The position numbers were made by a program, and so were the translations under genes. The notes below the pieces were generated by a model, which did no database searches, was not told where the DNA came from, and saw only the letters and a list, made by a program, of their open reading frames with translations. Positions 21,541-60,700 of a stretch of DNA of 64,000 nt are shown here, piece by piece; within the stretch, counting starts at the first letter, position 1, and every line of letters starts with the position of its first letter. Source of the DNA: Minisyncoccota bacterium (GTDB taxonomy: Bacteria > Patescibacteriota > Minisyncoccia > Phycocordibacterales > Phycocordibacteraceae); contig JBAZXD010000002.1 of the NCBI GenBank assembly GCA_041660025.1, positions 4,635-68,634 on the forward strand, given 5' to 3'.

Positions 21541-21548
21541 AGGTGAGA

Positions 21549-24374: not shown

Positions 24375-24385
24375 TTTCGGTTATT

Positions 24386-30015: not shown

Positions 30016-30018
30016 TGT

Positions 30019-31191: not shown

Positions 31192-31193
31192 AT

Positions 31194-31928: not shown

Positions 31929-32036
31929 TACTAGACCACCACTCCTCTTATTCCAAGATGCAGAGGGCGTGATATCATTACCGTATCCTCCCTGGAGGAG
32001 AAGGATCATTATCCCGTAACTAACTATTAAGCCAGT

Positions 32037-36297: not shown

Positions 36298-36437
36298 GTT
36301 ATCCACACTCCGCTTTTTTTTCTCACACAAAAAGTTTTTTACGCGCGATAATAACGTATAGAAACGTTTGCGAGTGAAATATTTTCTCGCGCAGACGGGT
36401 CGACATACCAGCCCTCACCCATAATTCGCAAACCACC

Positions 36438-36518
36438 ATGGCAAAAAAGCGTAAGGCCGCGAAGAAGACAGCAAAGCGCAAGACAACGAAGCGCAAGGCT
36501 GCAAAGAAGCGCAAATAG
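36438..36518 (+). CDS. Candidate 26-aa Lys/Ala-rich micro-ORF (MAKKRKAAKKTAKRKTTKRKAAKKRK)
   Basis: ATG..TAG open frame found by reading the sequence; absent from the ORF track. Composition resembles histone H1/Hc1-like basic tails. Conserved element copy C starts at the first base after its stop codon. Confidence 0.25.
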   Translation: MAKKRKAAKKTAKRKTTKRKAAKKRK

Positions 36519-36640
36519 TTTCGTAAACAAAGTTTGCTCCCAGCGCTCGCTCGAAAAAGAAAAATCAGAATCTTTCTTTTCTCTCGCTCGCTTGGTAGTA
36601 AAAAGAAAAATCCCTCCGTTCGCGGAGGGATTTTTCTTTG
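36519..36640 (+). repeat. Conserved post-stop-codon intergenic element, copy C, ending in a canonical intrinsic terminator
   Basis: CAAAGTTTGCTCCC AGCGCTCGCTCG, then an A/T hairpin, then TCTCGCTCGCTTGGTAGTA AAAAGAAAAA, then the terminator. Confidence 0.55.
36603..36637 (+). terminator. Rho-independent terminator aaaaATCCCTCC-gttcgc-GGAGGGATttttctttg
   Basis: 8-bp GC-rich stem followed by a T-run. Confidence 0.7.
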
Positions 36641-45133: not shown

Positions 45134-45910
45134 ATGGACGAGATTCTCATAGGCGAGAAGAAATACGTATCGTCGAAACAAGCCGCCAAGGTAACCGGCT
45201 ACGCGAAGGATTATATAGGCCAGCTTTGTCGCGAGGGGCGGGTGCCGGCGAGGCTCGTCGGACGCAGTTGGTATGTGCTTGAATCGGCCATTCACGACCA
45301 TCGCTTCGGCAACCCTGAACCAGCCAAAGAAGGAAAGTCGACGTCCTCGCTCCACTCGACGTGGGAAGCTCCGCGGTATGAAGCATCAAAAACAGAAGTG
45401 CTCCCCTCCGTGAGCCGTTCTCAGGACAAAGAACATCAAGCTCTTGTCGAAGAAAAAACTGGGAACCCCGACACCGCACAACATCTGCAAGACGCCTGGC
45501 AGTCATGGTTCAATCGTTTTGATCAGGTGGCGGACACTCCCGCTCACGAGCCAGTAGCAACCGAGGAACCGACACAAGAGCCGAAAGAGATTGAAGTTGA
45601 GCAGGAACCAGAACCAGAACAAGAACAGAGCGTGCAGATACCTATTCGCACGGTCTACCAGCCACACTACCAATCCTCCCCAGAAGAACCGTTGCCGCGC
45701 GAGGTGGATGTCCAGCCGATGAGCATCGTGCGAGAATCGCGAAGGGTGGGAACGGGAAGAGGACTGCTAAGAACAATGCAGTTAGCCGGAGCCATTGTTG
45801 CGGTACTTTCAGCATCTGCGGCGGTGCTCGGTAGCGGATATTTGGACTCATACGCAATCTCGAATAGCCAAGTCAGGGCAATTGCAGGAGTCGCACTCTA
45901 CAACAGATAG
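45134..45910 (+). CDS. HTH_17 (excisionase-type helix-turn-helix)-like N-terminal domain, acidic disordered linker and C-terminal TM anchor. This is the small paralogue of the N-terminal module of the two giant genes downstream.
   Basis: KKYVSSKQAAKVTGYAKDYIGQLCREGRVPARLVGRSWYVLESAI fits the HTH_17 pattern (EAAxxLGxSxxTIYRLxxxGxLPxxKIGxxWxIxxxDLxxFL). E/P/Q-rich linker. TM helix LLRTMQLAGAIVAVLSASAAVLGSGYL. Start at the internal MDEIL, not the track's 44849, which overlaps gatB. Confidence 0.5.
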   Translation: MDEILIGEKKYVSSKQAAKVTGYAKDYIGQLCREGRVPARLVGRSWYVLESAIHDHRFGNPEPAKEGKSTSSLHSTWEAPRYEASKTEVLPSVSRSQDKEHQALVEEKTGNPDTAQHLQDAWQSWFNRFDQVADTPAHEPVATEEPTQEPKEIEVEQEPEPEQEQSVQIPIRTVYQPHYQSSPEEPLPREVDVQPMSIVRESRRVGTGRGLLRTMQLAGAIVAVLSASAAVLGSGYLDSYAISNSQVRAIAGVALYNR

Positions 45911-46013
45911 CTTATTTACAGGATTTCTCGTCTCGGCAAGAAGTGTTTGTTTATAATCCCGAATAAAATTAAAATATACTGACTATTTATTTAACTATTT
46001 AAGTTGTACAAAA

Positions 46014-46045
46014 ATAGAGGCGCCCTTTGGCGCCTCTATTTTATT
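46014..46045 (+). terminator. Rho-independent terminator atagaggcgcc-cttt-ggcgcctctat followed by TTTTATT
   Basis: Perfect 11-bp stem and T-run, about 100 nt downstream of the 45134..45910 gene. Confidence 0.75.
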
Positions 46046-46328
46046 GAAATGATCCTAAGCCCTCTAATCGACGTGTAGGGCGCATTCCTTTGTGTTCAGC
46101 ACAAAAACTGATCTAAGCCACCACTCTTTCCTTAAGGGCAAATATACCGGTCCGGCGTCGACGGCCTTACGCGACGCTATAGAAGCGTCTTTTACCATAT
46201 CCTGTGGCAATTCATTTCGACGTACTTACTGGTAGTTCATAGCTTCCGTTCGTGCGGAATTTATCCACATATGAATATAATGGTGCGTCAAAATACGAGG
46301 TACTATTTAGTTAATCCGGTTATCCGAC

Positions 46329-49300
46329 ATGAATGCTCCTCACTCAGAAAAGTTTATAGGAACAAAGGAAGCATCTGAACTGTCTGGGTACAATCCCGAT
46401 CATCTCTCTCGTCTCTCTCGGTCTGGAGAAATTGACGCGATACGTGTCGGACGTACGTGGTACATTGAACGCGAATCGCTGATAACCTTTTTAAAAAAGC
46501 AGGGTCGACGGGCGAAAGAATTTCCAGGACTGATCTCGGCGAAAGAAGCCTCGAAGAAATATGGCTACAGCGCCGACTACCTCGCCCGCCTCGCCCGCTC
46601 CGGCGAAGTCAGGGGTTCTCAGGTGGGCCGGACCTGGCTCGTAGACCAATCGTCACTCGATTCATTTCTCAAGCTCCAAGAGGAACGTAGAGAAGCGCGC
46701 GCGCGCGAGCTTGCGCGAGCGCGAGAGCGCGAGTACCGCGCTCGCCGCCAGACGCCGATGCATCGCGCGGTTCATCTTGTTCCGCAGGAGCAGGAACCTG
46801 TCGTGCCGGGCACAAACTCGTTCGTCTTTTTTTATAAGACGTCAGCACGGGCGCTCGCTACCGCATTCCTCGTCGTCGTGTTCGGGTCGCTCGTGGCACA
46901 GGCCGGACCGGTCGCCAAGCTCGCGGCGGGGACCACATCGGTCATACACGGCATCGCGGTCGGTTTCGATGCTGCCTTTGGCGATATCCCATCGCGTTTT
47001 GTAGCGCGCCTGGATAATTCTCGCGCAGATATGCACGCACGTTCTGTACAGGGGGCGGCGCGTCTCGCGCACCTCTCGGCGTCGCTTACAGCGCCGGAGC
47101 TTACTCACTTGGATCTTCGAGCCGCGCCGCTTGCACTTACCGTCGAGCCGCGTTCGCTACGGAGTGCGCCGCCCGCGCTCGTTGCTGATGGGAAAGCAAA
47201 TATGCGCCGATGGCGCTCTGATGCTTCCGATGCTCTCGCATTTATCTCATCGCCACCAGAGATTATGGATGCGTTGGCCGGAATTTCTGGCGCCATAATT
47301 CGTGCGGATGTATCGCTCGCATACACCCTCGCCACCGCCGCTCCCGCAAGCGCCCGCGCCACCGTCGCGCTCGTCGGCGGCGCGGGCGCAGTACTCGCAG
47401 ACGCCACAGCCGAGCTCCCGCGACTCGCCTCCGCACTCTTCCTGCGCACAACGTCAGCTCCGGCCCATCTCGCACCCGCCCTCGCCCAGGCGGTCTTCGA
47501 CGCTGAATACACTGCCGCAACACGCTTCGTCGCGTTCACCCGCACAATCTCCGACGCCTCTCTCGCCTCGATCACCAGCGCCGGCGAGCTCGCATATACC
47601 ATCACAAAAGGAACCCAGGACACTCTCCGCACCACAGGAACTCTCCTCGCTACCGCACCCGCAGCGGTCCACAACGCGTATCTCGGCGCACTCGGCACAG
47701 GCGCGCTCGCGCTCGCTGCGGTACAACCCACCCTCACCACCACCGAACAGATCGCCCTCTCCACGTACGAAACCATCCACGACTTCTTCACCTCGGCCGG
47801 CCGCGCGCTCGCCGACCTCCTCACCCCCGCCCCGATCATTGTCCTGGTGAACAACACACCGATCGCTCCGGTCCCCGTCGCCACCTCCACCCCATTGGAT
47901 AGCTCCGCATCCAACGGGGCAAGCCCCGCCGCTCCTCCTGCCTCCTCCCCTAATTCACAATTCGTAATTCCTAATTCAGTTTCGTATCCCACGTACACCA
48001 CCATCGTCCGTGGTGTCTCCGAAGACTTCGTCAACCAGTCCCTCACCTCGCTCCGCACCGAGCTCCTCGCGCGGGTCTCGAGCCTCATCCAGCCCGTCGC
48101 GAGTCAGGTGGCCACCAACGTCACCACCATCCAGCAGGTCAATATGATCCAGGACCTCTCCGACCTCATCGTCCGAAACGGCGACTTCCGGGGCGGTACC
48201 TTCGACAGCGGCGCGCTCACTAACGGCATCAGCGTTGCCGCCACGACCGGCGCCTTCGATACCCTCACTGCCGACGACTTCACCTCCGGCTCTCTCATCG
48301 CCACCGGCGCCCTCACCTCATACCAGAGCGCCACCGCACCACACTTCGTTGCCACCTCCACCACCGCCACCAGCACCTTCGCCGGCGGGCTCACAGTCGG
48401 CACCGACAAGCTCGTCGTCGACTCCACAACCGGGTACATCGGCATCGGCACCACAAGTCCGTACTCGCTCCTCTCCATTGCCGGACAGGTCGTGGGGCAG
48501 AACTTCATGGCGACCGACTCCTCAGCCACCTCCTCCTTCTCCGGGAACTTCTCGGTAGGAGGAAGCACCGGAGCGTACCTCACCGGAAACGGCTCCGGCA
48601 TCACCTTCTCCGGCACAGGCAACCACGACATCACCGCCTCCGCCGGCACGCTGCGCATCGGTTCAAACACCATCATCGGCAACATCCAGGCTCTCGACGA
48701 CACGGTGGACATCGGCACCCCGGCTGTCCGCTTCGACAATATCTATGCGAACGAAGTGAACGCCTCCACCATCGTCGGTACCCTCACCGGCGGCAACCTC
48801 ACCGCCGAGACTTTCAACATCAATTCCGACAACGCCACTGCCGACACCGAGAATGGTTATCTCTCATTCGAACGGGGCAGCATCATCCCAAACGCCCTCC
48901 TCACCTGGAACGCGGCCGAGAGTGCCAAGCGCTTTGAGTTCAACCAGCCCCTCTACATCGAGAGCGCCGACGCCTCCACCACCCTCACCACCCTTGATGT
49001 GAAGGGAGTGACGAGCCAGACCGCCGACCTTATTCGTGTGACTTCCTCAACCGGCGCGAGCCTCTTCAATGTCGGAGCAAATGGGAATGTGGGGGTGGGG
49101 ACGAATAACCCATCCGGCACATTGGATATTTCTTCGTCTGCAAGCACTGTTGTTAATGCGTACCTCGGTACCGTGTCGGCCGGGTATGGCAATGGCGGCG
49201 CTTTGAATTTTAAAGGAGCTGGGACAACAATCGGGACTATTAAAGAAACCTATACAAATAACCCGAGCGGAGACAGAGGACTAATGGAATTCATTGTTCA

Positions 49301-52300
49301 TGATGGTACTTCGGTTAGTACGAAGATGGTTATTTTCGGTAATAACGTCGGCATCGGGACGACGACGCCGTGGGGACAGCTCTCGGTCAACCCGAACGGC
49401 ATCACGGGCCCCGCCTTCGTCGTCGGCTCCTCCACCGCCACGAACTTCATCGTGACGAACGGGGGGAATGTGGGGATCGGGACGGCGAGTCCCGCTGATA
49501 AGTTTTCAAACACATCTTCTAATATTATTGATGAGAACTCGGTAGGAACTACACTAGGAAGCGGAATATCTTGGACAGCTTCTGCAAGCGGGTATCTACA
49601 GGCACTTTCCCAAATATCTTCTGGGGCAAACGCAAACGGTTTGCTTGTAAAAATTTCCGGCGCAGCAAGCACTAATAAAGCATTATCGTTAAATATTAAC
49701 GGTAGCGATTTATTTGTAGTTAATGGTCAAGGCAATGTCGGTATAGGGACAAATGAGCCTAGTTCACCCCTGCAGATACAAAGTCCCAATAGCAAAACAT
49801 TTTTGGATATACGAGGAACCGGATTCAATGCGGCGAATCAATATTCAGATTTAGATTTCACGTCTGATTCCAGTAGTCATGTGTATTCAAAAATAAGGAT
49901 GAATACGGTAACGGCTGCTTATGGAGGTAGTCTGCAGTTTTTTACTAACCCTGGACCGCTAGCCGCAACGGCTTCTTTAGTAAGAATGACAATCGATGAG
50001 ACCGGCAACGTCGGCATCGGGACGACGAGTCCGGCAACAAGTCTCGTCGTGCAGGCGGGTGGAACTGCTAGTGTTGTTAATATTGGGCAACTTTCCGGTT
50101 TTACGAATTTCAGTGGTATTGCATTCACTCAAAACGTCTCGTCCGCCGTCTCAACTTCCAACTACTCCATTTTAGGAGATGGAACGAACACCTATATAAG
50201 TCGTCCGACAGGCGGTTTCTTGTCTTTCCGTGAGAACAACGTGGACCAAATGTTCATCGCAACCGGTGGCAACGTCGGCATCGGGACGGCGAGTCCGGGA
50301 CAAAAGTTGGATGTAAGAGACGGAAAGTTTGCATTAACTGACGCAGACGTTGCCCACGGAATGACATCTTGGGCTACTACCGAAACCTATGGACTTATGG
50401 AAATAGATAGCGCAACAGCCGGAGGGCTAAGGGTCTGGGGATTCGGTGATACGGTGGGTCAGAGAGCATTAGTGAATCTTGGTATTTTAGGCGATGTTGA
50501 CCCAACCGATACTGTAGCAGCTATAACATTGGCGGCAGGTAAAAAGAGCGGGCCAACTGCCCAAGCTCTTAGTGCTCTTGAGACGGTTCTAAAAATTGAG
50601 AATTGGGGCACGGATTTGGTCACGATTTTAGGAAGCGGCAACGTCGGCATCGGAACGACGAGTCCGGCAAGCAAACTTGCAGTATCAGGAGGCGCGTCAA
50701 TCGGCGCCAACTACAACGTCGCCGCGCCAACGAACGGACTCATTGTGGAGGGGAAGGTAGGAATTGGGATGAATGGCGCATCGAGAACCTTGGACATTAC
50801 GGGGAATGTGGGAGCAACGAGAAGCAATACGCTTGTATACGACCCAACCAATTCTGCTACGTTCAACAGCATCATTAGTCTTTCAAGAACTGGCGGTAGT
50901 CTCACTGGGCGCAACGTACTTATTGATTTTGACGATGTTGGTTCAGCGGTTGGTAATTTTGGAATCGTTCAACACAGCACCGGACTGCCATATGCTGATT
51001 TTGTTTGGAATCAATACAATGGGTCTGCGTATGCGGAAACAATGCGGATTGATTACCTCGGCAACGTCGGCATCGGGACGACGACGCCGTACTCAACGCT
51101 TTCTGTTGCGGGTCAAGTTGTCGGTACTGCGTTTGTCCCTTCAGCCGCTACCGTTCCTTCGAATGGAGAATATCTGCCAGCGGCGAATACGCTGGGTTGG
51201 GCGACGAATGGCACTGCACGGATGACGCTCACTGCAGGGGACAACCAAACTGCGGCACTTACCATTACAAATCTCACTTCTGTCGCGTGGCCGGTGGCCA
51301 ATGGCGGCAATGTTAATATCTTCTCCACCAACTCGAGCGCGGATAATTCAGGAGGAACAATCGGACTCGGCGGATGGGATGGTAGCAATAACCGCTCCCA
51401 CGCAGTTATTTTTGGCGGAAAAGAGAATAACATCAGCGGGAATTTTGCCGGATATTTTGCTGTAAGTACTCAACCGAACGGAGAGAATCATACAGAAAGA
51501 TTACGCATTACATCCGCGGGCTCTGTCGGCATCGGGACGACGACGCCATGGGGACAGCTCTCGGTGAACCCGAACGGCATCACCGGCCCCGCCTTTGTCG
51601 TCGGCTCCTCAACCGCCACCAACTTCATCGTGACGAACGGGGGGAATGTCGGCATCGGGACGGGGGTGCCGTTGGCTCAACTTTCTGTCGGTAGCGGAAG
51701 CCTCGTAGACGCTACCGTTCCAGTACAAATAAATTCTGCTTCCGGGGGGCAGGCCTGGTACGGAGTAAACAAAGCCGGTGGTTATGGATTGCTGATGGGC
51801 TTCTATGACGTGCCGGCAGGGAACTTCCAGCGTGGCGGAGTGATTCGCATGGTGACGACCGATCCGCTGACTTTTGCGGTCAACAACACAACGAACGCAA
51901 TGACGATTTTGAGTTCCGGCAACGTCGGCATCGGGACGACGAGTCCGTATACGAAATTCGCGGTAGTGGATGGGACGGGTGAAATGCGCTTCCAGAATGT
52001 CAGCCAGAATAACCTGACTGTTTCCGGAACGAATGCAACAATCATCGCTGATAGCACAGGCGGAAGCTATCCGGGGTTTATGGCAAAAGTAAGTGGAACA
52101 TTAAAGGCGCAATGGTATTCGGACGCAACTAACGCCGTTACCTACACAACCGGCGCACAAATTTTCCAATCAGGGGGCAATACTGAAAAAATGAGAATTG
52201 ATACGAGCGGCAACGTCGGCATCGGGACGACCTCTCCCTACGCCCAGCTCTCCGTCGCCACGCCGAACGGCGCGACAGGAAGCCTCTCCACTCTCTTTGC

Positions 52301-54527
52301 CGTCGCTTCCTCTACCGCCTCGGCGACCACCACGCTCTTCTCTATCTCCAACACAGGCACGGCATCAGCCAACGCCATCATCCCGAACGGCCCGTACACC
52401 ACCAACCTCGCGAGCTACGACCTCGGCGCGACCGGCTCCCGGTGGAATGCTGTCTGGGCAGGCGCACTCAACATCGGCACCTCCACCTTCTCCATCAAGA
52501 GCGACTCCGCAAGCAACCTCGGCTTCTACACCGCCGCCTCCGGCGGCGGCACCCAAGCTCTCACCGTCACCTCCGCCGGCAACATCGGCATCGGGATTAC
52601 AAATCCTTCAGTTTCCCTGGATGTGAACGGCAGTTCTCGTTTTTACGGAATTGCTAATTTTGACGGCGCAACATACGCCGCTCAAGATTTTAAAGCCGCC
52701 GGCGTGCATAAGGCTTATATTGCTACGGCCAATGCAGTTTTCGGCGGAGGTTCTGCAAGCGATCTTGCCGTTGATGCCAGCGCGGGCAACCTTGTCTTGG
52801 GAGTGGGAGACGCTGAGAAGATGCGCATTCAAGTCACCACTGGCAACGTCGGCATCGGGGACGCAAATCCGCCTTCTAAATTAACCGTGAATGGTTCATT
52901 GCGATTTTATAATGTCCCCGGAGGATCGACAGGAGGAACATTCTGTTATGACACCAGCACTGGTGAAGTCGCCGCAAGTAGCGCCGGCACCTGTTCGGGC
53001 TCAGACGAGCGTCTTAAAACCAACATTGCCGACCTCCAAAACTCGGAGGGGCTCGCCGCCATCGCTGCTCTGCGTCCTGTCAGCTTTGTGTGGAAGGATG
53101 CAGCGATGGCCGCAAGCCAAGGGACCCAACTGGGCTTCATCGCCCAAGAGATGCAATCGATTCTTCCCGAGCTAGTGCTTAACGATAGCGGGACGACCAC
53201 CATTACTCTCGTCGATGGTTCTAAGCAACAAATTCCTAATACACTCTCCATTAACTACCAGAAGCTCGTTGTACCACTAGTGAAGGCGGTACAAGAACTT
53301 GATATCCGCACGGGCTTCATCGCGAGCGCCGCAACATCCACCGTTCTGACGGTGGATGTTGCGGGCAACATCGGCATCGGTACGAGTACGCCGAATCATA
53401 CGTTGACGGTCGCAGGCGACATCGGCGCCACCGGCTTCATCAACACCTCCACCCGCTCGGCCAAGACCGACATCAGCTATATCACCGCCTCCTCCTCTGA
53501 CGATATGCTGAACCAGCTCACCAATCTCAAAGTCGCCACCTATCGCTATACGATAGAAGACCAGTCAGATCCGCTCCGCCTCGGCTTCATCGCAGAGGAC
53601 GCCCAGACTATCGCCCCCGAAATCCTCTCTCCCGACGGAAAGGGCGTGGACCTCTACAAGCTCGCCACCTTCAACCTCGCCGCTACCCAGGCGCTCGCCG
53701 CGAAGTTCGACCAGATGGACACCCGTGTCACCTCGCTCGAAGACCGCATCTCTGCTCTCGAGAGCGGGGCAGTGTCCTCGGTAGGTGGTACAACGTCGCT
53801 TGCGAGCGCGATACAGAGCATCAGCAGCGCGCTCAACATTGGGAAGCTCATCTCCGATACCTTCTATGCGGCCCAAGGGTTCATCGACCATCTCACGGCC
53901 GCGAATGCGACTATCGGTTCGGCAACAGTGCCTTCGGGCGTGACATTCTATGACTCCGTGACCAAACAGCCGTACTGCTTCAGTATTGCGAACGGCGCAC
54001 CGACAACGACGCCCGGCATCTGCGCGGAGTCAACCGAGAGTACGAATCCGTTCGCTACCTCGACGCAGATAATAGATAATGGAATATCGATAGGGGATAC
54101 AGGAACGACATCCGCTCCGCTCACGATTACACTTAATGGAGCGACGCCGACGTACGTGCCGGTCGGCGGGACGTATGTCGAGCCTGGAATTGTCGTAGCT
54201 GGCGGTAGCGGGGGGAATATCCCATATCAGGTATATGTGAATGGCTACGTGTCTGATACCACGTCGCCCGCACTCGATACTTCATTGCCGACAACCTACA
54301 TCCTTACCTATCACGCGGCGGATGGGGCGGGGGAGACGGCGACCGCTTACCGATCGGTCATTGTTAAAGATCTCGACAGCACGACACCGCCCTCGACTGA
54401 ACAGACTGCGACCACAAGTTCCATAAGTATAGAGTCGACAACTCCAGTCTCGTCGACCGCCACGACGACCACGGATGCAACGATTCAATCAACCGATACC
54501 GCAACGACCACACAGTCGACCATATAA
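46329..54527 (+). CDS. Giant (2732 aa) membrane-anchored cell-surface fibre protein. Order of modules: two N-terminal HTH_17-like domains, an Arg/Glu-rich helix, a TM anchor, an Ala/Thr-rich stalk, more than 25 GNVGIGTTSP-type beta-helix repeats, two Peptidase_S74-like (tail-fibre intramolecular chaperone) modules, a DUF5011-like Ig domain and a Thr-rich tail.
   Basis: HTH copies KEASELSGYNPDHLSRLSRSGEIDAIRVGRTWYIERESLITFL and KEASKKYGYSADYLARLARSGEVRGSQVGRTWLVDQSSLDSFL. EARARELAREREYRARR helix. TM FVFFYKTSARALATAFLVVVFGSLVA. Many repeats of GNVGIGTTTP / GNIGIGTSTP. S74 signature CSGSDERLKTNIADLQNSEGLAAIAALRPVSFVWKD...GFIAQEMQSILPELV, then a second S74-like module SAKTDISYITASSSDDMLNQLTNLKVATYRYTIED...RLGFIAEDAQTIAPEI. 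Ig-like domain TPTYVPVGGTYVEPGIVVAGG...TYILTYHAADGAGETATAYRSVIVKD. Confidence 0.7.
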   Translation: MNAPHSEKFIGTKEASELSGYNPDHLSRLSRSGEIDAIRVGRTWYIERESLITFLKKQGRRAKEFPGLISAKEASKKYGYSADYLARLARSGEVRGSQVGRTWLVDQSSLDSFLKLQEERREARARELARAREREYRARRQTPMHRAVHLVPQEQEPVVPGTNSFVFFYKTSARALATAFLVVVFGSLVAQAGPVAKLAAGTTSVIHGIAVGFDAAFGDIPSRFVARLDNSRADMHARSVQGAARLAHLSASLTAPELTHLDLRAAPLALTVEPRSLRSAPPALVADGKANMRRWRSDASDALAFISSPPEIMDALAGISGAIIRADVSLAYTLATAAPASARATVALVGGAGAVLADATAELPRLASALFLRTTSAPAHLAPALAQAVFDAEYTAATRFVAFTRTISDASLASITSAGELAYTITKGTQDTLRTTGTLLATAPAAVHNAYLGALGTGALALAAVQPTLTTTEQIALSTYETIHDFFTSAGRALADLLTPAPIIVLVNNTPIAPVPVATSTPLDSSASNGASPAAPPASSPNSQFVIPNSVSYPTYTTIVRGVSEDFVNQSLTSLRTELLARVSSLIQPVASQVATNVTTIQQVNMIQDLSDLIVRNGDFRGGTFDSGALTNGISVAATTGAFDTLTADDFTSGSLIATGALTSYQSATAPHFVATSTTATSTFAGGLTVGTDKLVVDSTTGYIGIGTTSPYSLLSIAGQVVGQNFMATDSSATSSFSGNFSVGGSTGAYLTGNGSGITFSGTGNHDITASAGTLRIGSNTIIGNIQALDDTVDIGTPAVRFDNIYANEVNASTIVGTLTGGNLTAETFNINSDNATADTENGYLSFERGSIIPNALLTWNAAESAKRFEFNQPLYIESADASTTLTTLDVKGVTSQTADLIRVTSSTGASLFNVGANGNVGVGTNNPSGTLDISSSASTVVNAYLGTVSAGYGNGGALNFKGAGTTIGTIKETYTNNPSGDRGLMEFIVHDGTSVSTKMVIFGNNVGIGTTTPWGQLSVNPNGITGPAFVVGSSTATNFIVTNGGNVGIGTASPADKFSNTSSNIIDENSVGTTLGSGISWTASASGYLQALSQISSGANANGLLVKISGAASTNKALSLNINGSDLFVVNGQGNVGIGTNEPSSPLQIQSPNSKTFLDIRGTGFNAANQYSDLDFTSDSSSHVYSKIRMNTVTAAYGGSLQFFTNPGPLAATASLVRMTIDETGNVGIGTTSPATSLVVQAGGTASVVNIGQLSGFTNFSGIAFTQNVSSAVSTSNYSILGDGTNTYISRPTGGFLSFRENNVDQMFIATGGNVGIGTASPGQKLDVRDGKFALTDADVAHGMTSWATTETYGLMEIDSATAGGLRVWGFGDTVGQRALVNLGILGDVDPTDTVAAITLAAGKKSGPTAQALSALETVLKIENWGTDLVTILGSGNVGIGTTSPASKLAVSGGASIGANYNVAAPTNGLIVEGKVGIGMNGASRTLDITGNVGATRSNTLVYDPTNSATFNSIISLSRTGGSLTGRNVLIDFDDVGSAVGNFGIVQHSTGLPYADFVWNQYNGSAYAETMRIDYLGNVGIGTTTPYSTLSVAGQVVGTAFVPSAATVPSNGEYLPAANTLGWATNGTARMTLTAGDNQTAALTITNLTSVAWPVANGGNVNIFSTNSSADNSGGTIGLGGWDGSNNRSHAVIFGGKENNISGNFAGYFAVSTQPNGENHTERLRITSAGSVGIGTTTPWGQLSVNPNGITGPAFVVGSSTATNFIVTNGGNVGIGTGVPLAQLSVGSGSLVDATVPVQINSASGGQAWYGVNKAGGYGLLMGFYDVPAGNFQRGGVIRMVTTDPLTFAVNNTTNAMTILSSGNVGIGTTSPYTKFAVVDGTGEMRFQNVSQNNLTVSGTNATIIADSTGGSYPGFMAKVSGTLKAQWYSDATNAVTYTTGAQIFQSGGNTEKMRIDTSGNVGIGTTSPYAQLSVATPNGATGSLSTLFAVASSTASATTTLFSISNTGTASANAIIPNGPYTTNLASYDLGATGSRWNAVWAGALNIGTSTFSIKSDSASNLGFYTAASGGGTQALTVTSAGNIGIGITNPSVSLDVNGSSRFYGIANFDGATYAAQDFKAAGVHKAYIATANAVFGGGSASDLAVDASAGNLVLGVGDAEKMRIQVTTGNVGIGDANPPSKLTVNGSLRFYNVPGGSTGGTFCYDTSTGEVAASSAGTCSGSDERLKTNIADLQNSEGLAAIAALRPVSFVWKDAAMAASQGTQLGFIAQEMQSILPELVLNDSGTTTITLVDGSKQQIPNTLSINYQKLVVPLVKAVQELDIRTGFIASAATSTVLTVDVAGNIGIGTSTPNHTLTVAGDIGATGFINTSTRSAKTDISYITASSSDDMLNQLTNLKVATYRYTIEDQSDPLRLGFIAEDAQTIAPEILSPDGKGVDLYKLATFNLAATQALAAKFDQMDTRVTSLEDRISALESGAVSSVGGTTSLASAIQSISSALNIGKLISDTFYAAQGFIDHLTAANATIGSATVPSGVTFYDSVTKQPYCFSIANGAPTTTPGICAESTESTNPFATSTQIIDNGISIGDTGTTSAPLTITLNGATPTYVPVGGTYVEPGIVVAGGSGGNIPYQVYVNGYVSDTTSPALDTSLPTTYILTYHAADGAGETATAYRSVIVKDLDSTTPPSTEQTATTSSISIESTTPVSSTATTTTDATIQSTDTATTTQSTI
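47319..47860 (+). repeat. About 540-bp block roughly 95% identical to 55828..56370. It is the stalk-region block shared by the two giant genes.
   Basis: Both copies encode AYTLATAAPASARATVALVGGAGA...LADATAELPRLASALFLR...APALAQAVFDAEYTAATRFVAFTR... Further shared blocks: 47983-48220 vs 56458-56695, 48596-48830 vs 57086-57320, and 53290-53770 vs 62690-63140. Confidence 0.7.
49339..49490 (+). repeat. About 140-bp module encoding GNVGIGTTTPWGQLSVNPNGITGPAFVVGSSTATNFIVTNGGNVGIGT. Five near-identical copies across the two giant genes.
   Basis: Copies at about 49339-49490 and 51521-51670 (gene 1), and 59220-59365, 60149-60290 and 61536-61680 (gene 2). Confidence 0.7.
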
Positions 54528-54783
54528 AATAAACCGCAGTAAATAAGCCAAATCTCGTCTCGCCAAGACGAGCTTATGTAGGGGTCATTTCGACACAAAA
54601 GTGCATAAGCTGTTGATTTCGAGTCGACAATAATCGGCCCATAATCGTGTCGATATTTACCTTGGCTCCACTTAGGATAATCGTGGGTGGGGATAATAAT
54701 TTAGCTCTTATCCACAGGGGTCCAAAAATCCATCTGATTTCGCTGATATATCAAGTAATATATTAGATATTACAGCGATTTTC

Positions 54784-57700
54784 ATGGATCCTTCTTTTAA
54801 CGAAAATAAGCAAAAAAATATCTCGATCCGTGAGGCTACGAATCGTTCTGGATATAGCACAGGATATCTTTCCAATCTTTGTCGAACGGGAAAAATAGTT
54901 GGGAAGTATTCTCATAACGAATGGTCTGTCGATATCGCATCACTTGAGAGCTTTATCAAGGGGCAGGCGGAACGTAAAGAAGCGCGCGCGCGCGAGCTCG
55001 CGCGCGCGCGCGAGATGGAGTATCGAGCGCACCGCGTCCCGAAGACACCGAGCGGCGCGAACCTTCAACCTTCAACCTTCAATTTTCAAAAAAAGCCACC
55101 CGCGATGCCGCTGTCAGAGATCATTCGCGGTTCATTGCGTTCGCAGGCCATCGCCATCGCCACGGCACTTCTGGTCGTCGGAGGGAGCGCTCTCGCGGCA
55201 CAAGCCTCGGCGATCCCGCAGTTCGCGGGAAAGACCGCAATGCTCGTGCGCGAGGCCGCGCTCGGATTCGATGATTTGTTCGGCGACATTCCTGCGCGCA
55301 TCGTGTCGAGGATCGATGCCGCAGAAAATGATGTGAGGAGAATTTCTTCGCGCATCGTGGCGGCGAACGCGATCACGACCGCGCGTATCGCGTCGCCGTT
55401 TCTTGCGGAGCCGGATCTTTCTTCACTGCAGATGGCCCCATTAGAGACAAGGACCAAAAATGTCCTGGCCGACTTGCAGTCGACGTCTCTAACGGGACAA
55501 GCGCTCGATGTACCGATGATTACTGCTGATGATGTACAAATGTTTGTGCTCGACGTGTACGGGGTGGTCGCTTCGCCGTCGCGTGCCGCCCGCGCGCTCG
55601 TGAACGCATATGTCGCGCTCGGCGAAGACGCGTATGACGCGATCGCGGCGGCATTCTCTGCCTACGATTCGCTCATCGAGAAGTCGGGAACGAGAGCGCT
55701 CGCGCTCGCCGCCACGACGCGCGACACGCTGGCGGCGGCACCACAGCTCGTCGCGCAGATGAATCTCGCGCTCGGCGGGGCGGTTATCAAAGCCGCGCAT
55801 ACGGCGGTAGAAGCCGACGTGGCGGCCGCATACACCCTCGCCACCGCCGCTCCCGCAAGCGCCCGCGCCACCGTCGCGCTCGTCGGCGGCGCGGGCGCCA
55901 CACTCGCAGACGCCACAGCCGAGCTCCCGCGACTCGCCTCCGCACTCTTCCTGCGCGCAACGTCAGCCCCGGCCCAGCTCGCACCCGCCCTCGCCCAGGC
56001 GGTCTTCGACGCTGAATACACTGCCGCAACACGCTTCGTCGCGTTCACCCGCGCCGTCTCCGACGCCTCTCTCGCCTCGATCACCAACGCCGGCGAGCTC
56101 ACATATACCATCACAAAAGGAACCCAGGACACTCTTCGCACCACGGGAACTCTCCTCGCTACCGCACCCGCAACGGTCCACAACGCGTATCTCGGCACCC
56201 TCGGCACAGGTGCGCTCGCGCTCGCTGCGGTACAACCCACCCTCACCACCACCGAACAGATTGCCCTCACCACGTACGAAACCATCCACGACTTCTTCAG
56301 CTCGGCCGGCCGTGCGCTCGCCGATCTCCTCACCCCCGCCCCGATCATTGTTCTGGTGAACAACACACCGAAAACGCCAGCCCCCGTCGCCACCTCCACC
56401 CCAGTCATTCCGCCATCTCCCTCCCGCAGTTCGCAACCTTCAATCGTTAATTCAACTTCATACCCCACGTACACCACCATCGTCCGTGGCGTCTCCGAAG
56501 ACTTCGTCAACCAATCCCTCACCTCGCTCCGCACCGAGCTCCTCGCGCGGGTCTCGAGCCTCATCCAGCCCGTCGCGAGCCAGGTGGCCACCAACGTCAC
56601 CACCATCCAGCAGGTCAATATGATCCAGGACCTCTCTGACCTCATCGTCAGGAACGGCGACTTCCGGGGCGGCACCTTCGACAGCGGCACACTCTCAAAC
56701 GGCCTCAGCGTCACCGCAACGAACGGCACCTTCACCACTCTCACTGCCGGAGCGACAACCCTCGGCGCAACCTCTCTCGCCACCACCACCGTCACGGGCG
56801 ACCTCACGCTCTCCGGCATCCTCACGGCAAACACGAAAGCCGTCGCCCCGTATTTCGTCGCGACCGACACAGCCGCAACCTCCACCTTCGCCGGTATGCT
56901 CGCCATCGGCACCACCACCCCCTATGGCGCCGGCCTCCTCACGGTCGGCACCTCCTCCCCCTTGCTCTATATCGACAGCACCACCGGGAACCTCGGCATC
57001 GGCACCTCCTCGCCCGCATCCGCTCTCTCCGTTGCCGGCAACTTCCTCCTTACCGGCACCACCACGGTGACCGGCACCGACTCCGGCATCACCTTCACCG
57101 GCACCGGGAACCACGACATCACCGCCTCCGCCGGTACGCTGCGCATTGGTTCAAACACCATCATCGGCAACATCCAGGCCTTGGACAGCACGGTGGACAT
57201 CGGCACCCCGGCTGTCCGCTTCGACAAGATCTATGCGAACGAAGTGAACGCCTCCACCATCGTCGGCACCCTCACGGGAGGCAACCTCACCGCCGAGACA
57301 TTCTCCATCAACTCCGACAATGTCTCTTCCGACCAGGAGAACTCCTACCTGTCCTTCCACCGCGGCACCGTCTCCCCGAATGCGCTCCTCACCTGGAACG
57401 CCGCCACCTCCTCAAAGCGCTTCGAGTTCAACCAGCCGCTCTTCGTCCTCGACGCCTCCGCCTCCACCACCAACACTACTCTTTCCATTCAGAGCGTCGC
57501 CGGTCAGACCGGCGACGTCTTCCGTATCTCCTCATCTTCTTCGGCAACCAACTTCTTCACCGTGACCGGCGCGGGGAATGTGGGGATTGGGACGAATAGT
57601 CCAACGGCTAATTTCCAGGTTACCTCTAATAATTCTAATACGAACAGCACAACGGGTGTCGGCGTTCTTCTTAAAGATGCTATGAGCACTACTAACAAAA

Positions 57701-60700
57701 TAATTCGTTTCCAGGGCAATTCCGGTTCCTATGATCATATTATCTACACTCCAGGCTCCTCTTCAAATTTAAGAATCGGCATAACTAATGGAACGAATAC
57801 ATACGACACGGTCACCCTTACAAATGGAAATCTCGTTGGCATCGGGAATTCAGCTCCGTTGTCTAGACTAGGTGTTACTGGGAATCTCTCTGTCGGAGCA
57901 ACCTATGGGATTATCGCAGCTCCTACTTCGGGAATGATAGTTGAAGGCAACGTCGGCATCGGGACGACGAGTCCATCGCAAGCGCTCTCGGTCCAGGGCA
58001 ACGGACTGTTCTCGGGGAACCTTGCAGCTGCCAACATTACGGCGACAGGTACCATTACCAGCACATACATTGGAGGCAACGCTTTTATTGCTCCCGGTTC
58101 AACAGGATCTTCCCCCCAATATTCATTCGCCGGGTCGAGTGGGAACGGACTCGGGATGGATTCGAGCGGCAATACAATACTTCAACATTCATTTGGTAGT
58201 GCTGGTACTGGCGTCATCATTAAAACAGGTACCGGTTCGGCGGCAGAAGTGGCGCGTTTCGTTGCGGGAGGCAACGTCGGCATCGGGACGACGACGCCGG
58301 GTGCGACGCTACAAGTATATGGTTCCGGATTGTTTGGCGCTGGAGCGACCCTTTTGAGCGGGGACGTCGTCACCATTAAAGGGCAGACACGGGTTCAAGG
58401 CTCGATGATTTTCGACACTTCTCCGAGCTCCGTAAGCGCGTCGATTACCCCGAATCTTGCCGGTTACACCACCTTCAACAGCAGTTCATGGCCCATAGTA
58501 TTGCAATCGACGGGCGGCAACGTCGGCATCGGGACGACGAGTCCAGGATGGCAACTGGAAGTCGCAGGCGTCGGTTCCAAGGCGGGGAATCCCTGGGATG
58601 CAACGGGCGGAGTGGCCGCAATCACTGATACCAGCGCCTACGGGCTTGGCGAAGGAGGGCAACTTTTGTTCCAGGGTAAATATACTTCCGCCGGGGCATT
58701 AGCGATGTTTGGCGGTATCCGTGCGTTCAAGGCAAATGCTACCGATGGAAGCGCAGTTGGCAATCTTGACCTATGGTCGCGAGCGGGAGCGATTCGTTTT
58801 TATTCTACGAGTGTCCCTCAAAACGGACAGGATGGGACACCAGACGTCACGATAAGCTCAACCGGCAACGTCGGCATCGGGACGACGAGTCCGGGCCAGT
58901 TGTTGACGGTTGGGAACAATAATCAGTTTACGGTCGATAGTTCCGGCAATGTCGTGGCTACAGGGTCCATCAGCGGCACCACAATTTATGCATCATCCGC
59001 AGTTATTGGAACCAATAGCGGCGTTTTATATCTCGGTGGAAGTTCTGCAACCGTTTTGGTTGCCGCGGGAGTATTTGGTCCTATTACCGACGTTTCCCAA
59101 GATTTGGGATTTTACAATAGACAATGGAGAAATACTTACATTGGCGGCAATGTCAGGGTCGGAGCGACATATGCAGCATTAAACATCGCAGGTCCAACAA
59201 GCGGAATGATAATAGAAGGCAACGTCGGCATCGGGACGACGACGCCGTGGGGCCAGCTCTCCGTGAACCCGAATGGGATAACCGGTCCTGCATTCGTCGT
59301 GGGCTCCTCCACCGCCACCAACTTCATCGTGACGAACGGGGGAAATGTGGGGATTGGAACCGCGAGCCCATTGGCGCAATTATCTGTTGGCAGTGGCAGT
59401 CTGGCGGATGCGGTAGTTCCCGTGCAGATTAACGCCGCTTCGGGGGGCCAAGCATGGTACGGGGTCAATAAGGCCGGCGGTTACGGGATGCTCACTGGAT
59501 TTTATGATGTCGCTTCTGGCAACTTCTCTCGTGGTGGTGTTATCCGTATGGTAACGAGTGACCCGCTGACGATTGCAGTCAACAATACCGTGTCGGCAAT
59601 GACATTCTTAAGCGACGGCAACGTCGGCATCGGCACGACGACGCCCGGGTCGCGTCTGCATGTGTACAACGGTCAGGGTGGCGGATCTGTCTCCGTGAGC
59701 TCATACGACACCCTATCGGTAGAAAACAACAACATCAACTACATCAACATGATCTCTCCGACCGCCAACCGGAGCGGCATTATATTCAGCAATAGCTTGC
59801 GAGGGATTGGGGGCATTACGTATACCGGCGGTGATACAACCGCAGGGTATGGTGGTACGAATAGTTTGAATTTTTCGACCAACGGCTCAACTCAGTCTAT
59901 GGTGATCAACAGCACCGGCAACGTCGGCATCGGGACGACGACGCCGTCCTATAAACTGGAGGTGAACAATGACTCAGCCGCGACTATCGCGCGCTTATTC
60001 AGAAATCAGACTGGAGCAAACGCAGACGTAGAGTTCGGAAATAAGAGCAACACTTGGATCCACCGCGTTACTGGCGACGGAACATATGATTACACCCTCG
60101 TTAATTCTGGCAACGGAGTACGAGTATTGACAGCTCTTTACAACGGCAACGTCGGCATCGGGACGACGACGCCGTGGGGTCAGCTTTCAGTAAATCCAAA
60201 CGGTATCACGGGCCCGGCATTTGTCGTCGGCTCCAGCACGGCCACCAACTTCATCGTCACGAACGGGGGCAATGTGGGGATCGGAACGGTGAGCCCGCAG
60301 GCGAAATTTGATGTAGCCGGAAATGTCTTGCTTGGGAGCGGACAAACTAATCCTTGGGTATACTTCGGAGGTCTCACTTCCGCCTTTCCCGCATTCAAGC
60401 GAGAAGGAGCCAACATTGAGGTAAAGCTGGCTAACGACGGCAACTACGCAAACCTGTACGCGAATGCCTTCTATCCCGGTGGAAGTGGCGTTATCGACTC
60501 AGGGAGTACGGGAGTGGTGAATATAAAGAATACCACCGCCACGAACGCGGCAACATTCCGCGTATACAACACGTTCACCGACACCTCCAACTATGAGCGC
60601 GGCGTATTCGATTGGAGCACTACGGCGAACGTCCTCTCTATCGGAACGCAGGCGGCAGGGACGGGGACATTGAGGAATATTAATCTCATCGGCGGCAACG

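What the first reader, a model, noticed from the sequence alone, without database searches (positions are those of the whole stretch)
45134..55020. Three consecutive genes share an N-terminal excisionase-type HTH module followed by a TM anchor
Gene 45134..45910 (259 aa), giant gene 1 and giant gene 2 all start with the same type of domain: ISxKEAxxxxGYSxDYLxRLxRxGEIxGxxVGRTWxVDxxSLxSFL. There are four copies in three genes, and gene 1 carries two in tandem. In each case the domain is followed by a disordered or charged linker and one TM helix. The small gene therefore looks like a stand-alone version of the giants' cytoplasmic-plus-anchor module, which is RodZ-like in layout (HTH, TM, extracellular part). 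A DNA-binding-type fold fused to extracellular fibres could couple the fibres to the nucleoid or to a cytoplasmic partner. It could also be a repurposed sorting or assembly domain. The three-gene paralogy suggests a dedicated system rather than a chance fusion.
Basis: inference. Interest (0 to 1): 0.7.

Follow-up and report, generated by a model that had tools for sequence, protein, structure and literature searches.

The report
Membrane-anchored HTH on giant surface fibres
In a group of tiny uncultivated bacteria (Kaiserbacteria-type Patescibacteria), a small, highly conserved membrane protein and the neighbouring giant cell-surface fibre proteins all start with the same DNA-binding-type domain on the inside of the membrane. 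This pairing is conserved in many species and, as far as I could find, has not been described.

Summary
The window holds exactly four copies of one excisionase/MerR-type winged-helix (HTH_17) subtype in three consecutive + strand genes. These are the small gene 45134..45910, giant 1 at 46329..54527 (two tandem copies), and giant 2 from 54784 (3115 aa in full). Each copy is followed by a linker and a single hydrophobic helix.

This is a conserved system, not a chance fusion. The small protein belongs to its own full-length family: at least 1433 clusters and 222 species genomes, with a near-invariant HTH. In 74 of 77 informative genomes the next gene encodes an HTH-TM protein of 233 to more than 3100 aa. 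The giants' N-terminal module has 6670 representative relatives, listed up to 7214 aa.

The small protein is not a cut-down giant. Homology is limited to the 47-residue HTH.

A new lead: a conserved 9-mer, TTATCC[A/C]CA (identical to the DnaA-box consensus), sits about 69 or 79 bp upstream of the giants' start codons.

Best reading (moderate confidence): these are membrane-tethered DNA-binding modules, like transmembrane transcription regulators, that link the giant-fibre genes to the membrane. Rival readings are a RodZ-like protein adaptor and an inert anchor. Function is untested. I rate it a new variant of a known kind.

The parts
45134..45910 (+). Small gene: 258-aa tail-anchored HTH protein (HTH, about 150 aa of acidic disordered linker with conserved short motifs, TM, short outside tail). 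It lies 52 bp after gatB with a GGGGG Shine-Dalgarno-like run.
   Evidence: The identical protein is found on a second contig, L001.
45164..45313 (+). Small-protein winged HTH (residues about 11-60), near-invariant across the family.
   Evidence: Pfam HTH_17 E=1.7e-5. HMM from other genomes gives 125 bits. AF2 pLDDT about 86, with a beta-alpha-alpha-beta-beta-alpha fold. 35 of 51 columns are 100% conserved.
45467..45529 (+). Conserved Trp/Phe-rich helix (QDSWxAWFDRF motif, residues 112-132) in the cytoplasmic linker of the small protein.
   Evidence: Alignment A2. AF2 helix 112-132.
45758..45907 (+). Small-protein TM helix (residues about 209-235) and conserved outside tail (GSGYxDxYxxSxxQ..AG..LYN[KR]).
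   Evidence: Hydropathy. AF2 helices 209-233 and 236-257. Positive-inside rule: 4.24 K+R on the N-side against 0.73 on the C-side, holding in 82 of 83 proteins.
46016..46045 (+). GC-rich hairpin followed by a T-rich run (terminator-like) after the small gene. It suggests the giants are separate transcription units.
   Evidence: Read directly from the sequence. The simple terminator scan did not flag it.
46261..46269 (+). Conserved box TTATCCACA, 68 bp upstream of the giant 1 ATG.
46282..46328 (+). Conserved class-A leader (GCCGAAAT...AAGTTATTATTTAGTTAATTCGGYTATCCGAC-ATG type) in front of giant 1. No Shine-Dalgarno sequence is visible.
   Evidence: Aligned in 68 loci. No consensus RNA structure. 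No Rfam family.
46329..54527 (+). Giant 1, 2732 aa. Order of parts: tandem wHTH, long basic helix, TM, helical stalk, GNVGIGT-type fibre repeats, 2x Peptidase_S74 (best stretch nt 53001-53180), Ig-like domain (nt 54126-54365).
   Evidence: It equals NCBI MFA5998243.1, 'tail fiber domain-containing protein'.
46353..46505 (+). Giant 1 wHTH copy a.
   Evidence: E=1.6e-23; pLDDT above 90.
46530..46682 (+). Giant 1 wHTH copy b. Its last helix runs on into a long Arg/Glu-rich helix (residues 107-141, to nt 46751).
   Evidence: (E=1.4e-23). TIGR01764 E=1.4e-11.
46836..46907 (+). Giant 1 TM helix (residues about 170-193).
54688..54716 (.). Two boxes in inverted orientation upstream of giant 2: TGGGGATAA (54688-54696, the reverse complement of TTATCCCCA) and TTATCCACA (54708-54716, 76 bp before the ATG).
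54784..64000 (+). Giant 2 (runs off the window; 3115 aa in full). Order of parts: single wHTH, basic helix, TM, stalk nearly identical to giant 1, fibre repeats, 2x Peptidase_S74, 2x Ig-like.
54820..54966 (+). Giant 2 wHTH (divergent class B: GYSTGYLSNLCRTGKIVGKYSHNEW).
   Evidence: No Pfam hit, but E=3.2e-19 with the HMM from other genomes. Same subtype in L030, L059 and P0122.
55144..55206 (+). Giant 2 TM helix (residues about 121-141).
36299..36307 (+). Third intergenic copy of the same box (TTATCCACA), about 140 bp upstream of a conserved tiny ORF (36439..36519). It shows that the box is not exclusive to the HTH genes.

Best explanation
The three genes encode single-pass membrane proteins with the N-terminus inside the cell. 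They come from a Kaiserbacteria-type member of the Patescibacteria. Their cytoplasmic ends carry one specific subtype of the MerR/excisionase winged helix-turn-helix.

The small protein is a housekeeping-grade, tail-anchored HTH protein. The following gene or genes encode hypervariable surface proteins, usually giant and probably trimeric fibres with phage-tail-fibre-like C-terminal chaperone domains. These carry the HTH, a basic helix and a TM anchor as a constant N-terminal module.

I propose that these HTHs are real DNA-binding domains working from the membrane, as in transmembrane transcription regulators (the ToxR/CadC/VtrA type). They would bind specific sites at the fibre genes. The best candidate site is the conserved TTATCC[A/C]CA box, which sits one of two helical-turn-spaced distances upstream of every fibre gene. 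Binding would regulate these very long genes and/or hold them at the membrane while they are transcribed, translated and inserted.

Shown: architecture, homology, fold, topology signals, gene-pair conservation, and conservation of the box.

Inferred: DNA binding, the box as the target, and any regulatory or tethering outcome.
For: (1) Fold and family. AF2 gives confident wHTH domains. The nearest solved structures all bind DNA: the TraN repressor of pIP501 (Foldseek E=1e-4, probability 1.00, 23% identity, covering both tandem domains of giant 1; also found by sequence at E=3.5e-5), Pukovnik Xis, BldC and RacA.

(2) DNA-contact positions are conserved. The TraN residues shown by mutagenesis to bind DNA are R23/N24/Q28, H82/R86 and G100/K101 (PMC10877727). 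Through the alignment they map onto the most conserved positions of both families: K/S-D at the start of the recognition helix, Q/R four residues later, and the wing G-R/H.

(3) The HTH domains are basic. Mean net charge is +4.1 for the small family and +2.1 for the giants.

(4) There is a matching conserved DNA element. TTATCC[A/C]CA lies 65-82 bp upstream of 72 of 82 fibre-gene starts, with modes at -69 and -78/-79, about one helical turn apart. It is the only copy in 25-28 kb in L086 and L087. It occurs 132 times in 1.25 Mb against about 10 expected, nearly all on the coding strand at two intergenic places. The variable, turn-spaced distance fits a factor-binding site better than a sigma -35 element.

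(5) The class is known. HTH-plus-TM regulators are common, and HTH_17 makes up 0.3% of those catalogued (PMC10269533). Membrane-bound regulators that hold their target locus at the membrane have been documented (PMC9977878).

(6) The gene pair is conserved in 74 of 77 informative genomes.
Against: There is no experimental data of any kind.

The box is identical to the universal DnaA-box consensus, so DnaA is an obvious alternative binder. A distant relative (L090) has TTATGCACA, which fits DnaA-box degeneracy.

The box also precedes a tiny non-HTH gene, so it is not specific to the HTH genes.

The small-protein HTH is invariant over almost its whole surface. That is more than DNA recognition alone usually demands and hints at protein partners.

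Giant-type HTHs vary in charge (pI 5.7-10.7).

A trend linking the box variant (A or C at position 7) to a recognition-helix residue (Ala or Ser) did not survive correction for relatedness: about 8 independent lineages, 5 against 3.

Three genomes have the small gene without an adjacent HTH-TM gene. Two giants (L086, L090) have no adjacent small gene.
Confidence: 0.45

Rival explanations
1. Protein-protein adaptor, working like RodZ. The HTH fold has been re-used to dock these membrane proteins to a conserved cytoplasmic partner such as a cytoskeletal, division, secretion or ribosome-associated protein, or to each other (small protein to giants). It would position or assemble the fibres and would not bind DNA.
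For: The layout matches RodZ: HTH, TM, outside part. My own knowledge: the RodZ HTH binds MreB, not DNA. The MerR-like protein CbpM, a protein binder, is among the fold hits. The near-total invariance of the small-protein HTH (35 of 51 positions) and its several conserved linear motifs in a disordered linker are typical of multi-partner hubs. The strict adjacency of the small and giant genes would fit a physical complex.
Against: The nearest structural and sequence relatives are DNA binders, and their DNA-contact positions are the ones conserved here. The domains are basic. No partner can be named, and no MreB-type gene lies in the conserved neighbourhood.
Confidence: 0.27
2. The conserved box belongs to DnaA or another soluble factor, and the HTHs have unrelated targets. 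On this view the giant genes and the tiny basic-peptide gene are under DnaA (replication-cycle) control. The membrane HTHs bind elsewhere on the chromosome, for example as nucleoid-membrane tethers like RacA, or they bind nothing specific.
For: TTATCCACA is the canonical DnaA-box consensus (my own knowledge). It also precedes a non-HTH gene in 61 of 64 loci. L090 carries TTATGCACA, which fits TTATNCACA. RacA, a chromosome-to-pole anchor with the same fold, is among the fold hits.
Against: 14 of 82 fibre genes carry TTATCCCCA, which breaks the CACA core of the DnaA consensus. There is only one box per promoter (two at giant 2), whereas stable DnaA binding usually needs clusters (my own knowledge). 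In the sampled DNA the box is almost confined to two promoters.
Confidence: 0.2
3. Inert topogenic anchor. The folded N-terminal domain only keeps the N-terminus in the cytoplasm and stabilises a type II signal-anchor for very large exported proteins. Its HTH ancestry is a historical accident.
For: Any folded cytoplasmic domain ahead of a signal-anchor fixes the N-in topology (general knowledge). The extracellular parts vary widely while the module is constant.
Against: An inert plug would not keep DNA-contact-type positions invariant across 6670 representative proteins, or 35 of 51 positions in the small family. It would not be duplicated in tandem in several lineages. It would not need a separate, conserved small paralogue next door.
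Confidence: 0.06
4. Annotation artefact. The HTH regions are separate small genes or untranslated sequence, and the giants really start downstream.
For: None was found. Giant 2's HTH is missed by Pfam.
Against: The reading frame is continuous from HTH to fibre in every locus. The ATG sits at a fixed 8 codons before the HTH in about 80% of 82 genes, usually with an in-frame stop just upstream. The amino-acid sequence of the HTH, helix and TM is conserved. A conserved leader ends exactly at that ATG.
Confidence: 0.02

Closest known systems
Transmembrane transcription regulators (TTRs: ToxR, TcpP, CadC, VtrA)
   Same: One polypeptide with an N-terminal cytoplasmic DNA-binding domain, a linker, a single TM helix and an outside part. 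Such proteins are known to act on DNA from the membrane and, for VtrA/VtrB, to hold the target locus there (PMC10269533, PMC9977878). HTH_17 is already catalogued as a rare DNA-binding domain in this class (151 proteins, 0.30%).
   Different: ToxR-type proteins use an OmpR-like winged helix (Trans_reg_C) and a small periplasmic sensor. Here the domain is the excisionase/MerR type. The outside part is either almost nothing (small protein, about 23 aa) or a 2,000-7,000-aa fibre with phage-tail-fibre chaperone domains. No regulatory activity has been shown.
RodZ
   Same: It is also a precedent for an HTH re-used for protein binding.
   Different: RodZ has an Xre-type HTH (Pfam HTH_25) and a C-terminal DUF4115 domain. 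Neither is detected here. No sequence homology was detected.
TraN (pIP501) / AM32 (pAMbeta1), tandem excisionase-like wHTH repressor
   Same: It is the closest solved structure and the only significant PDB sequence match. It has two wHTH domains in tandem in one chain, like giant 1, L006, L028, L032, L038 and L088. The signature ..G(K/Y)xxxY(L/F).. in the recognition helix and the wing G-(K/R) are shared. It binds specific dsDNA as a monomer and represses a promoter (PMC6158623, PMC10877727).
   Different: TraN is a 122-149-aa soluble cytosolic plasmid protein of Firmicutes in a conjugation operon. It has no TM and no extracellular part. Identity is only about 23%.
RacA, BldC, Xis/RdfS (small MerR-like or excisionase wHTH proteins)
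   Same: Same fold. RacA tethers the chromosome to a membrane-associated pole complex. Xis, BldC and RdfS oligomerise head-to-tail on DNA.
   Different: None of them is an integral membrane protein. RacA reaches the membrane through DivIVA. None is fused to a surface structure.
Phage tail fibres/endosialidases and bacterial fibre adhesins with a Peptidase_S74 intramolecular chaperone domain
   Same: The extracellular parts of both giants carry two PF13884 domains (E=1e-26 and 4e-17) plus Ig-like domains and long Gly-rich repeats. NCBI names giant 1 'tail fiber domain-containing protein'.
   Different: Those fibres attach to a virion baseplate or have ordinary signal or anchor sequences. I know of none with a cytoplasmic HTH. 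The S74 function (trimerisation and self-cleavage) was not tested here.

Membership tests
Pfam HTH_17 (PF12728) / TIGR01764 excisionase-family DNA-binding domain | Sequence match above the curated cutoff | tested here: inconclusive
   Giant 1 is met: PF12728 52.2 bits against 27, and TIGR01764 44.6 against 28.8. The small protein is just below: 25.5 against 27, and 17.4 against 28.8. Giant 2 has no hit. All four copies are linked by family HMMs and hhalign. Orthologues of the giant and of the small protein pass the Pfam cutoff.
Pfam HTH_17 (PF12728) / TIGR01764 excisionase-family DNA-binding domain | Winged-helix fold: beta strand, helix, recognition helix, beta-hairpin wing, helix | tested here: met
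   AF2 models of the small protein (pLDDT about 86 in the domain) and of giant 1 (above 90 for both copies). Top PDB fold hits are TraN, Xis, BldC, RdfS and RacA. Giant 2 was not modelled.
Pfam HTH_17 (PF12728) / TIGR01764 excisionase-family DNA-binding domain | Binds double-stranded DNA | not testable with these tools
   Indirect support only: basic charge, and conservation of the positions homologous to TraN's DNA contacts.
Transmembrane transcription regulators (TTR) | A recognised DNA-binding domain and at least one TM helix in one polypeptide | tested here: met
   HTH plus one hydrophobic helix in all three window proteins and in all 80 related N-termini tested. N-in topology is supported by the positive-inside rule.
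Transmembrane transcription regulators (TTR) | Sequence-specific promoter binding and control of transcription | not testable with these tools
   A candidate operator exists (the TTATCCMCA box), but its binder is unknown.
Transmembrane transcription regulators (TTR) | Extracytoplasmic signal-sensing part | tested here: inconclusive
   The small protein has only a conserved tail of about 23 aa outside. The giants have huge outside parts whose Pfam matches are structural or adhesive (S74, Ig-like), not sensor domains.
RodZ | Xre-type HTH (Pfam HTH_25) at the N-terminus | tested here: not met
   Pfam and NCBIfam scans give only HTH_17/excisionase-type matches.
RodZ | C-terminal periplasmic DUF4115 domain | tested here: not met
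   No such match in any of the three proteins.
RodZ | HTH binds MreB | not testable with these tools
   No MreB gene is seen in the conserved neighbourhood. The rest of the genome is not available.
TraN/AM32 family | Two excisionase-like wHTH domains in tandem forming an internal dimer | tested here: inconclusive
   Giant 1 has the tandem, and Foldseek aligns both domains to TraN (E=1e-4, probability 1.00). The rmsd of 7-8 A shows that the predicted mutual orientation differs. The small protein and giant 2 have a single copy.
TraN/AM32 family | Small soluble protein encoded in a Gram-positive conjugation (T4SS) operon | tested here: not met
   These are chromosomal housekeeping surroundings (murB, secA, obg, gatB) and membrane-anchored proteins.
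Tail-fibre-like proteins with an S74 intramolecular chaperone | Peptidase_S74 (PF13884) domain near the C-terminus | tested here: met
   Giant 1 E=9.7e-27 and giant 2 E=4.1e-17, two stretches each.
Tail-fibre-like proteins with an S74 intramolecular chaperone | Trimerisation and autocleavage | not tested
   Not examined.

The most novel reading that the evidence does not exclude
The giant fibres are adhesin-transcription-factor fusions that signal across the membrane. Contact with a host cell, pulling on the fibre, or failure of the fibre to assemble would be transmitted to, or would proteolytically release, the N-terminal HTH. The HTH, together with the small invariant HTH protein, would then act on the TTATCCMCA-marked promoters. 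This would be a Notch-like or ToxR-like contact sensor built into a multi-thousand-residue surface fibre. It would give genome-reduced episymbionts a one-protein route from host contact to gene expression. A milder form is cis-tethering: the nascent HTH binds its own promoter region and keeps the 8-21 kb gene at the membrane for coupled transcription, translation and insertion.
Probability: 0.12. Interest if true: 0.85.

Novelty: new variant of a known kind. Interest (0 to 1): 0.6.

Why it matters
Patescibacteria (CPR) make up a large share of bacterial diversity. They are thought to live attached to other cells, and how they build and control their attachment structures is almost unknown.

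This work defines a lineage-wide, previously unannotated module. Public records call these proteins only 'helix-turn-helix domain-containing', 'tail fiber domain-containing' or 'hypothetical'. The module puts a DNA-binding-type domain at the cytoplasmic foot of the cell's largest surface proteins. It comes with an invariant small partner and a conserved promoter box.

If the HTHs bind that box, this would extend membrane-bound transcription regulators to giant adhesins. It would also give a simple, testable circuit in organisms that cannot be grown. The domains are about 60 aa and the candidate site is 9 bp, so in-vitro tests are easy.

If they bind a protein instead, this would be a second RodZ-style re-use of an HTH.

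Tried and rejected
(1) Wrong-start artefact: rejected, because the ATG position, the in-frame stops and the leader are all conserved.

(2) A structured RNA leader or riboswitch in front of the giants: RNAalifold on 68 leaders predicts no pairs at all, and there is no Rfam match.

(3) The box as part of a replication origin: there is only one box per intergenic region (two at giant 2) and no dnaA nearby. This was dropped, but the whole genome was not available.

(4) The box as a general promoter element or sigma -35 element. Only 3 intergenic copies occur in 64 kb, and one-mismatch copies are not enriched (13 against 8.6 expected). Its distance to the conserved core leader jumps by about 10 bp between loci. 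Both points argue for a factor site.

(5) Covariation between the box variant (A or C) and recognition-helix residue 19 (Ala or Ser). The raw counts look associated (11 of 14 against about 30%), but only about 8 independent lineages are involved (5 against 3), so it is not significant.

(6) Word-indexed protein searches with the giants' N-terminus found almost nothing (1 and 4 hits). This was a limit of that tool. The exhaustive profile search found 6670.

(7) Literature searches for this architecture in CPR found no description.

(8) The simple sigma-70 promoter scan found no + strand promoter before either giant. My placement of a -10 (TATTAT) and a -35 position (TAGGAG) in the leader is therefore only a guess and is not used as evidence.

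Full report
**What is in the window.** Three consecutive + strand genes fit the description. The small gene is 45134..45910 (258 aa). Giant 1 is 46329..54527 (2732 aa). Giant 2 starts at ATG 54784 and runs off the window. The public record gives giant 2 as 3115 aa, and the source is a 'Candidatus Paceibacterota' MAG contig of 137 kb. Upstream lie ordinary chromosomal genes: a Wzy_C/TPR protein, murB, an LCAT-like lipase, secA, obg and gatB.

**The four HTH copies.** Pfam finds HTH_17 twice in giant 1 (52 bits). It finds it once in the small protein at 25.5 bits, just under the cutoff of 27, and not at all in giant 2. To avoid circularity I built HMMs only from orthologues in other genomes. The giant-type HMM hits exactly four places among all 849 six-frame segments of the window: E=1.6e-23, 1.4e-23, 3.2e-19, and 3.7e-12 for the small protein. 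Nothing else appears even at E<10. A profile-profile comparison of the small family with the giant family gives 98% probability (E=1.6e-13), but only over the 47 HTH columns.

**Starts, TM and topology.**
- Each protein has one strong hydrophobic segment after the HTH: small 217-235, giant 1 175-193, giant 2 121-139.
- All 80 related N-termini I collected have one too.
- In about 80% of 82 orthologous genes the ATG lies exactly 8 codons before the HTH. In most there is an in-frame stop about 6 codons further up. The HTH is therefore translated as part of the giants.
- The positive-inside rule places the HTH in the cytoplasm. For the small family, K+R counts are 4.24 on the N-side against 0.73 on the C-side, in 82 of 83 proteins. 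For the giants they are 1.76 against 0.84.
- The AF2 model of the small protein shows a winged HTH (residues 3-53, pLDDT about 86), a long disordered acidic linker with one Trp/Phe-rich helix (112-132), a TM helix (209-233) and a short terminal helix.
- The AF2 model of giant 1 residues 1-330 shows two confident wHTH domains (pLDDT above 90), a 35-residue Arg/Glu-rich helix, a disordered stretch, the TM helix (170-191), and then long helices outside.

**The small protein is a family of its own.** It has at least 1433 relatives (90% clusters). They match full-length, are 240-300 aa long, and the listed best hits are about 46-75% identical. Where a source names the organism, it is Kaiserbacteria, Paceibacterota or Parcubacteria. 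Relatives are encoded in 222 GTDB species genomes. Its HTH is extraordinarily constrained: 35 of 51 positions are invariant in 83 species. It also has conserved short motifs (TWExPRYE, LPSxNR, QDSWxAWFDRF, VPIHT, PPEELLPR) and a conserved outside tail. It lacks the giants' post-HTH helix and post-TM segment. It is therefore not a truncated giant. Only the HTH and the topology are shared.

**The gene pair is conserved.** Of the 80 genome loci fetched, 77 have enough downstream sequence to judge. In 74 of those the next + strand ORF, 100-850 bp downstream, starts with a giant-type HTH (E between 1e-14 and 1e-28) followed by a TM. The three exceptions are L063, L073 and L081.
- The neighbour is not always giant. 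Complete examples range from 233 aa to 2954 aa, and most long ones are cut by contig ends.
- Tandem HTHs recur in L006, L028, L032, L038 and L088.
- Second HTH-TM genes a few kb further on recur in L050, L052, L058 and L084, as in the window.
- An exhaustive profile search with the giants' N-terminal module finds 6670 representative proteins (2011 at E<=1e-10). Among the 150 best listed, the module is always at the N-terminus and lengths reach 7214 aa.
- Two more distant giants lack an adjacent small gene: L086 lies after ATP-synthase genes, and L090 lies next to a GGDEF/EAL gene.

**Closest structures.** By sequence, the only significant PDB match is TraN/AM32 (E=3.5e-5), a protein made of two tandem excisionase-like wHTH domains. 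By fold, giant 1's N-terminus hits TraN over both domains (E=1e-4, probability 1.00, 23% identity), then Pukovnik Xis and BldC. The small protein's domain gives TraN, Xis, RdfS, BldC, RacA and CbpM at weak E-values. TraN is a monomeric, sequence-specific repressor. Its DNA-contact residues are R23/N24/Q28, H82/R86 and G100/K101 (PMC10877727, PMC6158623). Through the HMMER alignment they align with the most conserved positions of both families here. The domains are basic, with mean net charge +4.1 (small) and +2.1 (giants).

**A conserved DNA box in front of the fibre genes (not in the original finding).**
- TTATCCACA lies 68 bp before the giant 1 ATG (46261) and 76 bp before the giant 2 ATG (54708). 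Giant 2 also has an inverted TTATCCCCA 11 bp upstream of its box.
- Of 82 HTH-TM gene starts, 58 have a single TTATCCACA and 14 have TTATCCCCA 65-82 bp upstream; 4 have other arrangements that include TTATCCACA or TTATCCACT, and 6 have no match. The distances show modes at -69 and -78/-79, about one helical turn apart.
- In 1.25 Mb of loci the exact 9-mer occurs 132 times against about 10 expected. Almost all are on the coding strand at two intergenic places.
- In L086 and L087 the single copy in 25-28 kb is the one before the giant.
- The box is followed by a conserved leader that ends at the ATG: GCCGAAAT-N3-AAGTTATTATTTAGTTAATTCGGYTATCCGAC. The leader has no Shine-Dalgarno sequence, no predicted RNA structure and no Rfam match.
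- The second conserved place is the murB-secA spacer, about 140 bp before a tiny ORF for a very basic peptide. That ORF is present in 61 of 64 loci and lies at 36439..36519 in the window.
- The 9-mer equals the DnaA-box consensus, so DnaA is a serious alternative binder. The TTATCCCCA variant does not fit that consensus. The TTATGCACA seen in L090 does.

**How it most likely works.** I favour membrane-tethered DNA binding. On this reading the small protein, and the N-termini of the fibre proteins, are transmembrane transcription-regulator-like modules that act at the fibre genes. The box is the best candidate site. Such regulators are common, single-pass ones being the commonest, and HTH_17 is a catalogued though rare DNA-binding domain among them (PMC10269533). 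Membrane-bound regulators that hold a locus at the membrane during coupled expression and insertion are documented (PMC9977878). For genes of 8-21 kb that encode type II membrane proteins, tethering or feedback by the first 60 residues to emerge is physically plausible, but this is inference.

The main rival is a RodZ-like protein adaptor. The near-total invariance of the small-protein HTH and its conserved linear motifs point towards protein partners. The second rival is that DnaA owns the box and the HTHs act elsewhere. An inert anchor and an annotation artefact are unlikely.

**Novelty and score.** I found no description of this architecture. Public names are generic. It is a new variant of a known kind (membrane-anchored HTH proteins), unusual in being fused to giant fibre adhesins and paired with an invariant small paralogue. 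Interest is 0.6. The system is well defined, widespread in one CPR lineage and directly testable in vitro, but its function is unproven.

Noticed in passing
window 46261-46269, 54688-54716, 36299-36307; also L002-L090: A conserved 9-mer, TTATCC[A/C]CA, identical to the DnaA-box consensus. It sits at turn-spaced distances (-69 or -79) before nearly all HTH-TM fibre genes and before one other gene. It occurs 132 times against about 10 expected in 1.25 Mb. Its binder is unknown.
   Followed up: partly
window 36439-36519 (hairpin terminator at about 36606-36636): A conserved tiny ORF in the murB-secA spacer encoding a very basic Lys/Arg/Ala peptide (MAKKRKAAKKTAKRKTTKRKAAKKRK; 13-47 aa in relatives). 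It is present in 61 of 64 loci, always about 140 bp after the same box. It may be an unannotated nucleoid- or ribosome-associated peptide.
   Followed up: partly
window 46282-46328; class B at 54717-54783: The giants have a highly conserved, unstructured, AT-rich leader with no Shine-Dalgarno sequence, whereas the small gene has a GGGGG run before its ATG. Giant 2, L030 and L059 share a different leader (class B) that goes with their divergent HTH subtype. A third leader class goes with the 'MKNKN...LISSKE' subtype (L050, L058, L084 and L086).
   Followed up: partly
window 46329-54527 versus 54784-64000: Giants 1 and 2 share nearly identical stretches. One is the post-TM stalk, about residues 330-560. 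Another is the unit TTPWGQLSVNPNGITGPAFVVGSSTATNFIVTNGGNVGIGT, repeated twice in giant 1 and three times in giant 2. This points to recent duplication or gene conversion between the fibre genes.
   Followed up: no
L006-L085 (downstream ends): Most public contigs end inside the giant gene; only 12 of about 70 first giants are complete. These repeat-rich genes systematically break metagenome assemblies and are therefore under-represented in protein databases. The word-indexed searches found almost none.
   Followed up: partly
window 36689-40047 versus L001, L002 and L004: The 985-aa LCAT-like lipase gene and a 134-aa ORF sit between the tiny ORF and secA in the window only; relatives lack them. 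L001 carries the identical small protein but has a Trp_repressor gene between secA and obg. The neighbourhood is conserved but has strain-specific insertions.
   Followed up: no
window 14001-32000: A block of lower G+C (43-48% against 53-63% elsewhere) covering about 18 kb of + and - strand genes. It may be a horizontally acquired island. It was not annotated here.
   Followed up: no
L081 2559-3740: In one genome that lacks the giant after the small gene, a box at -69 precedes a 370-aa ORF with no Pfam match. The promoter element has therefore stayed although the HTH-TM gene is absent or replaced.
   Followed up: no
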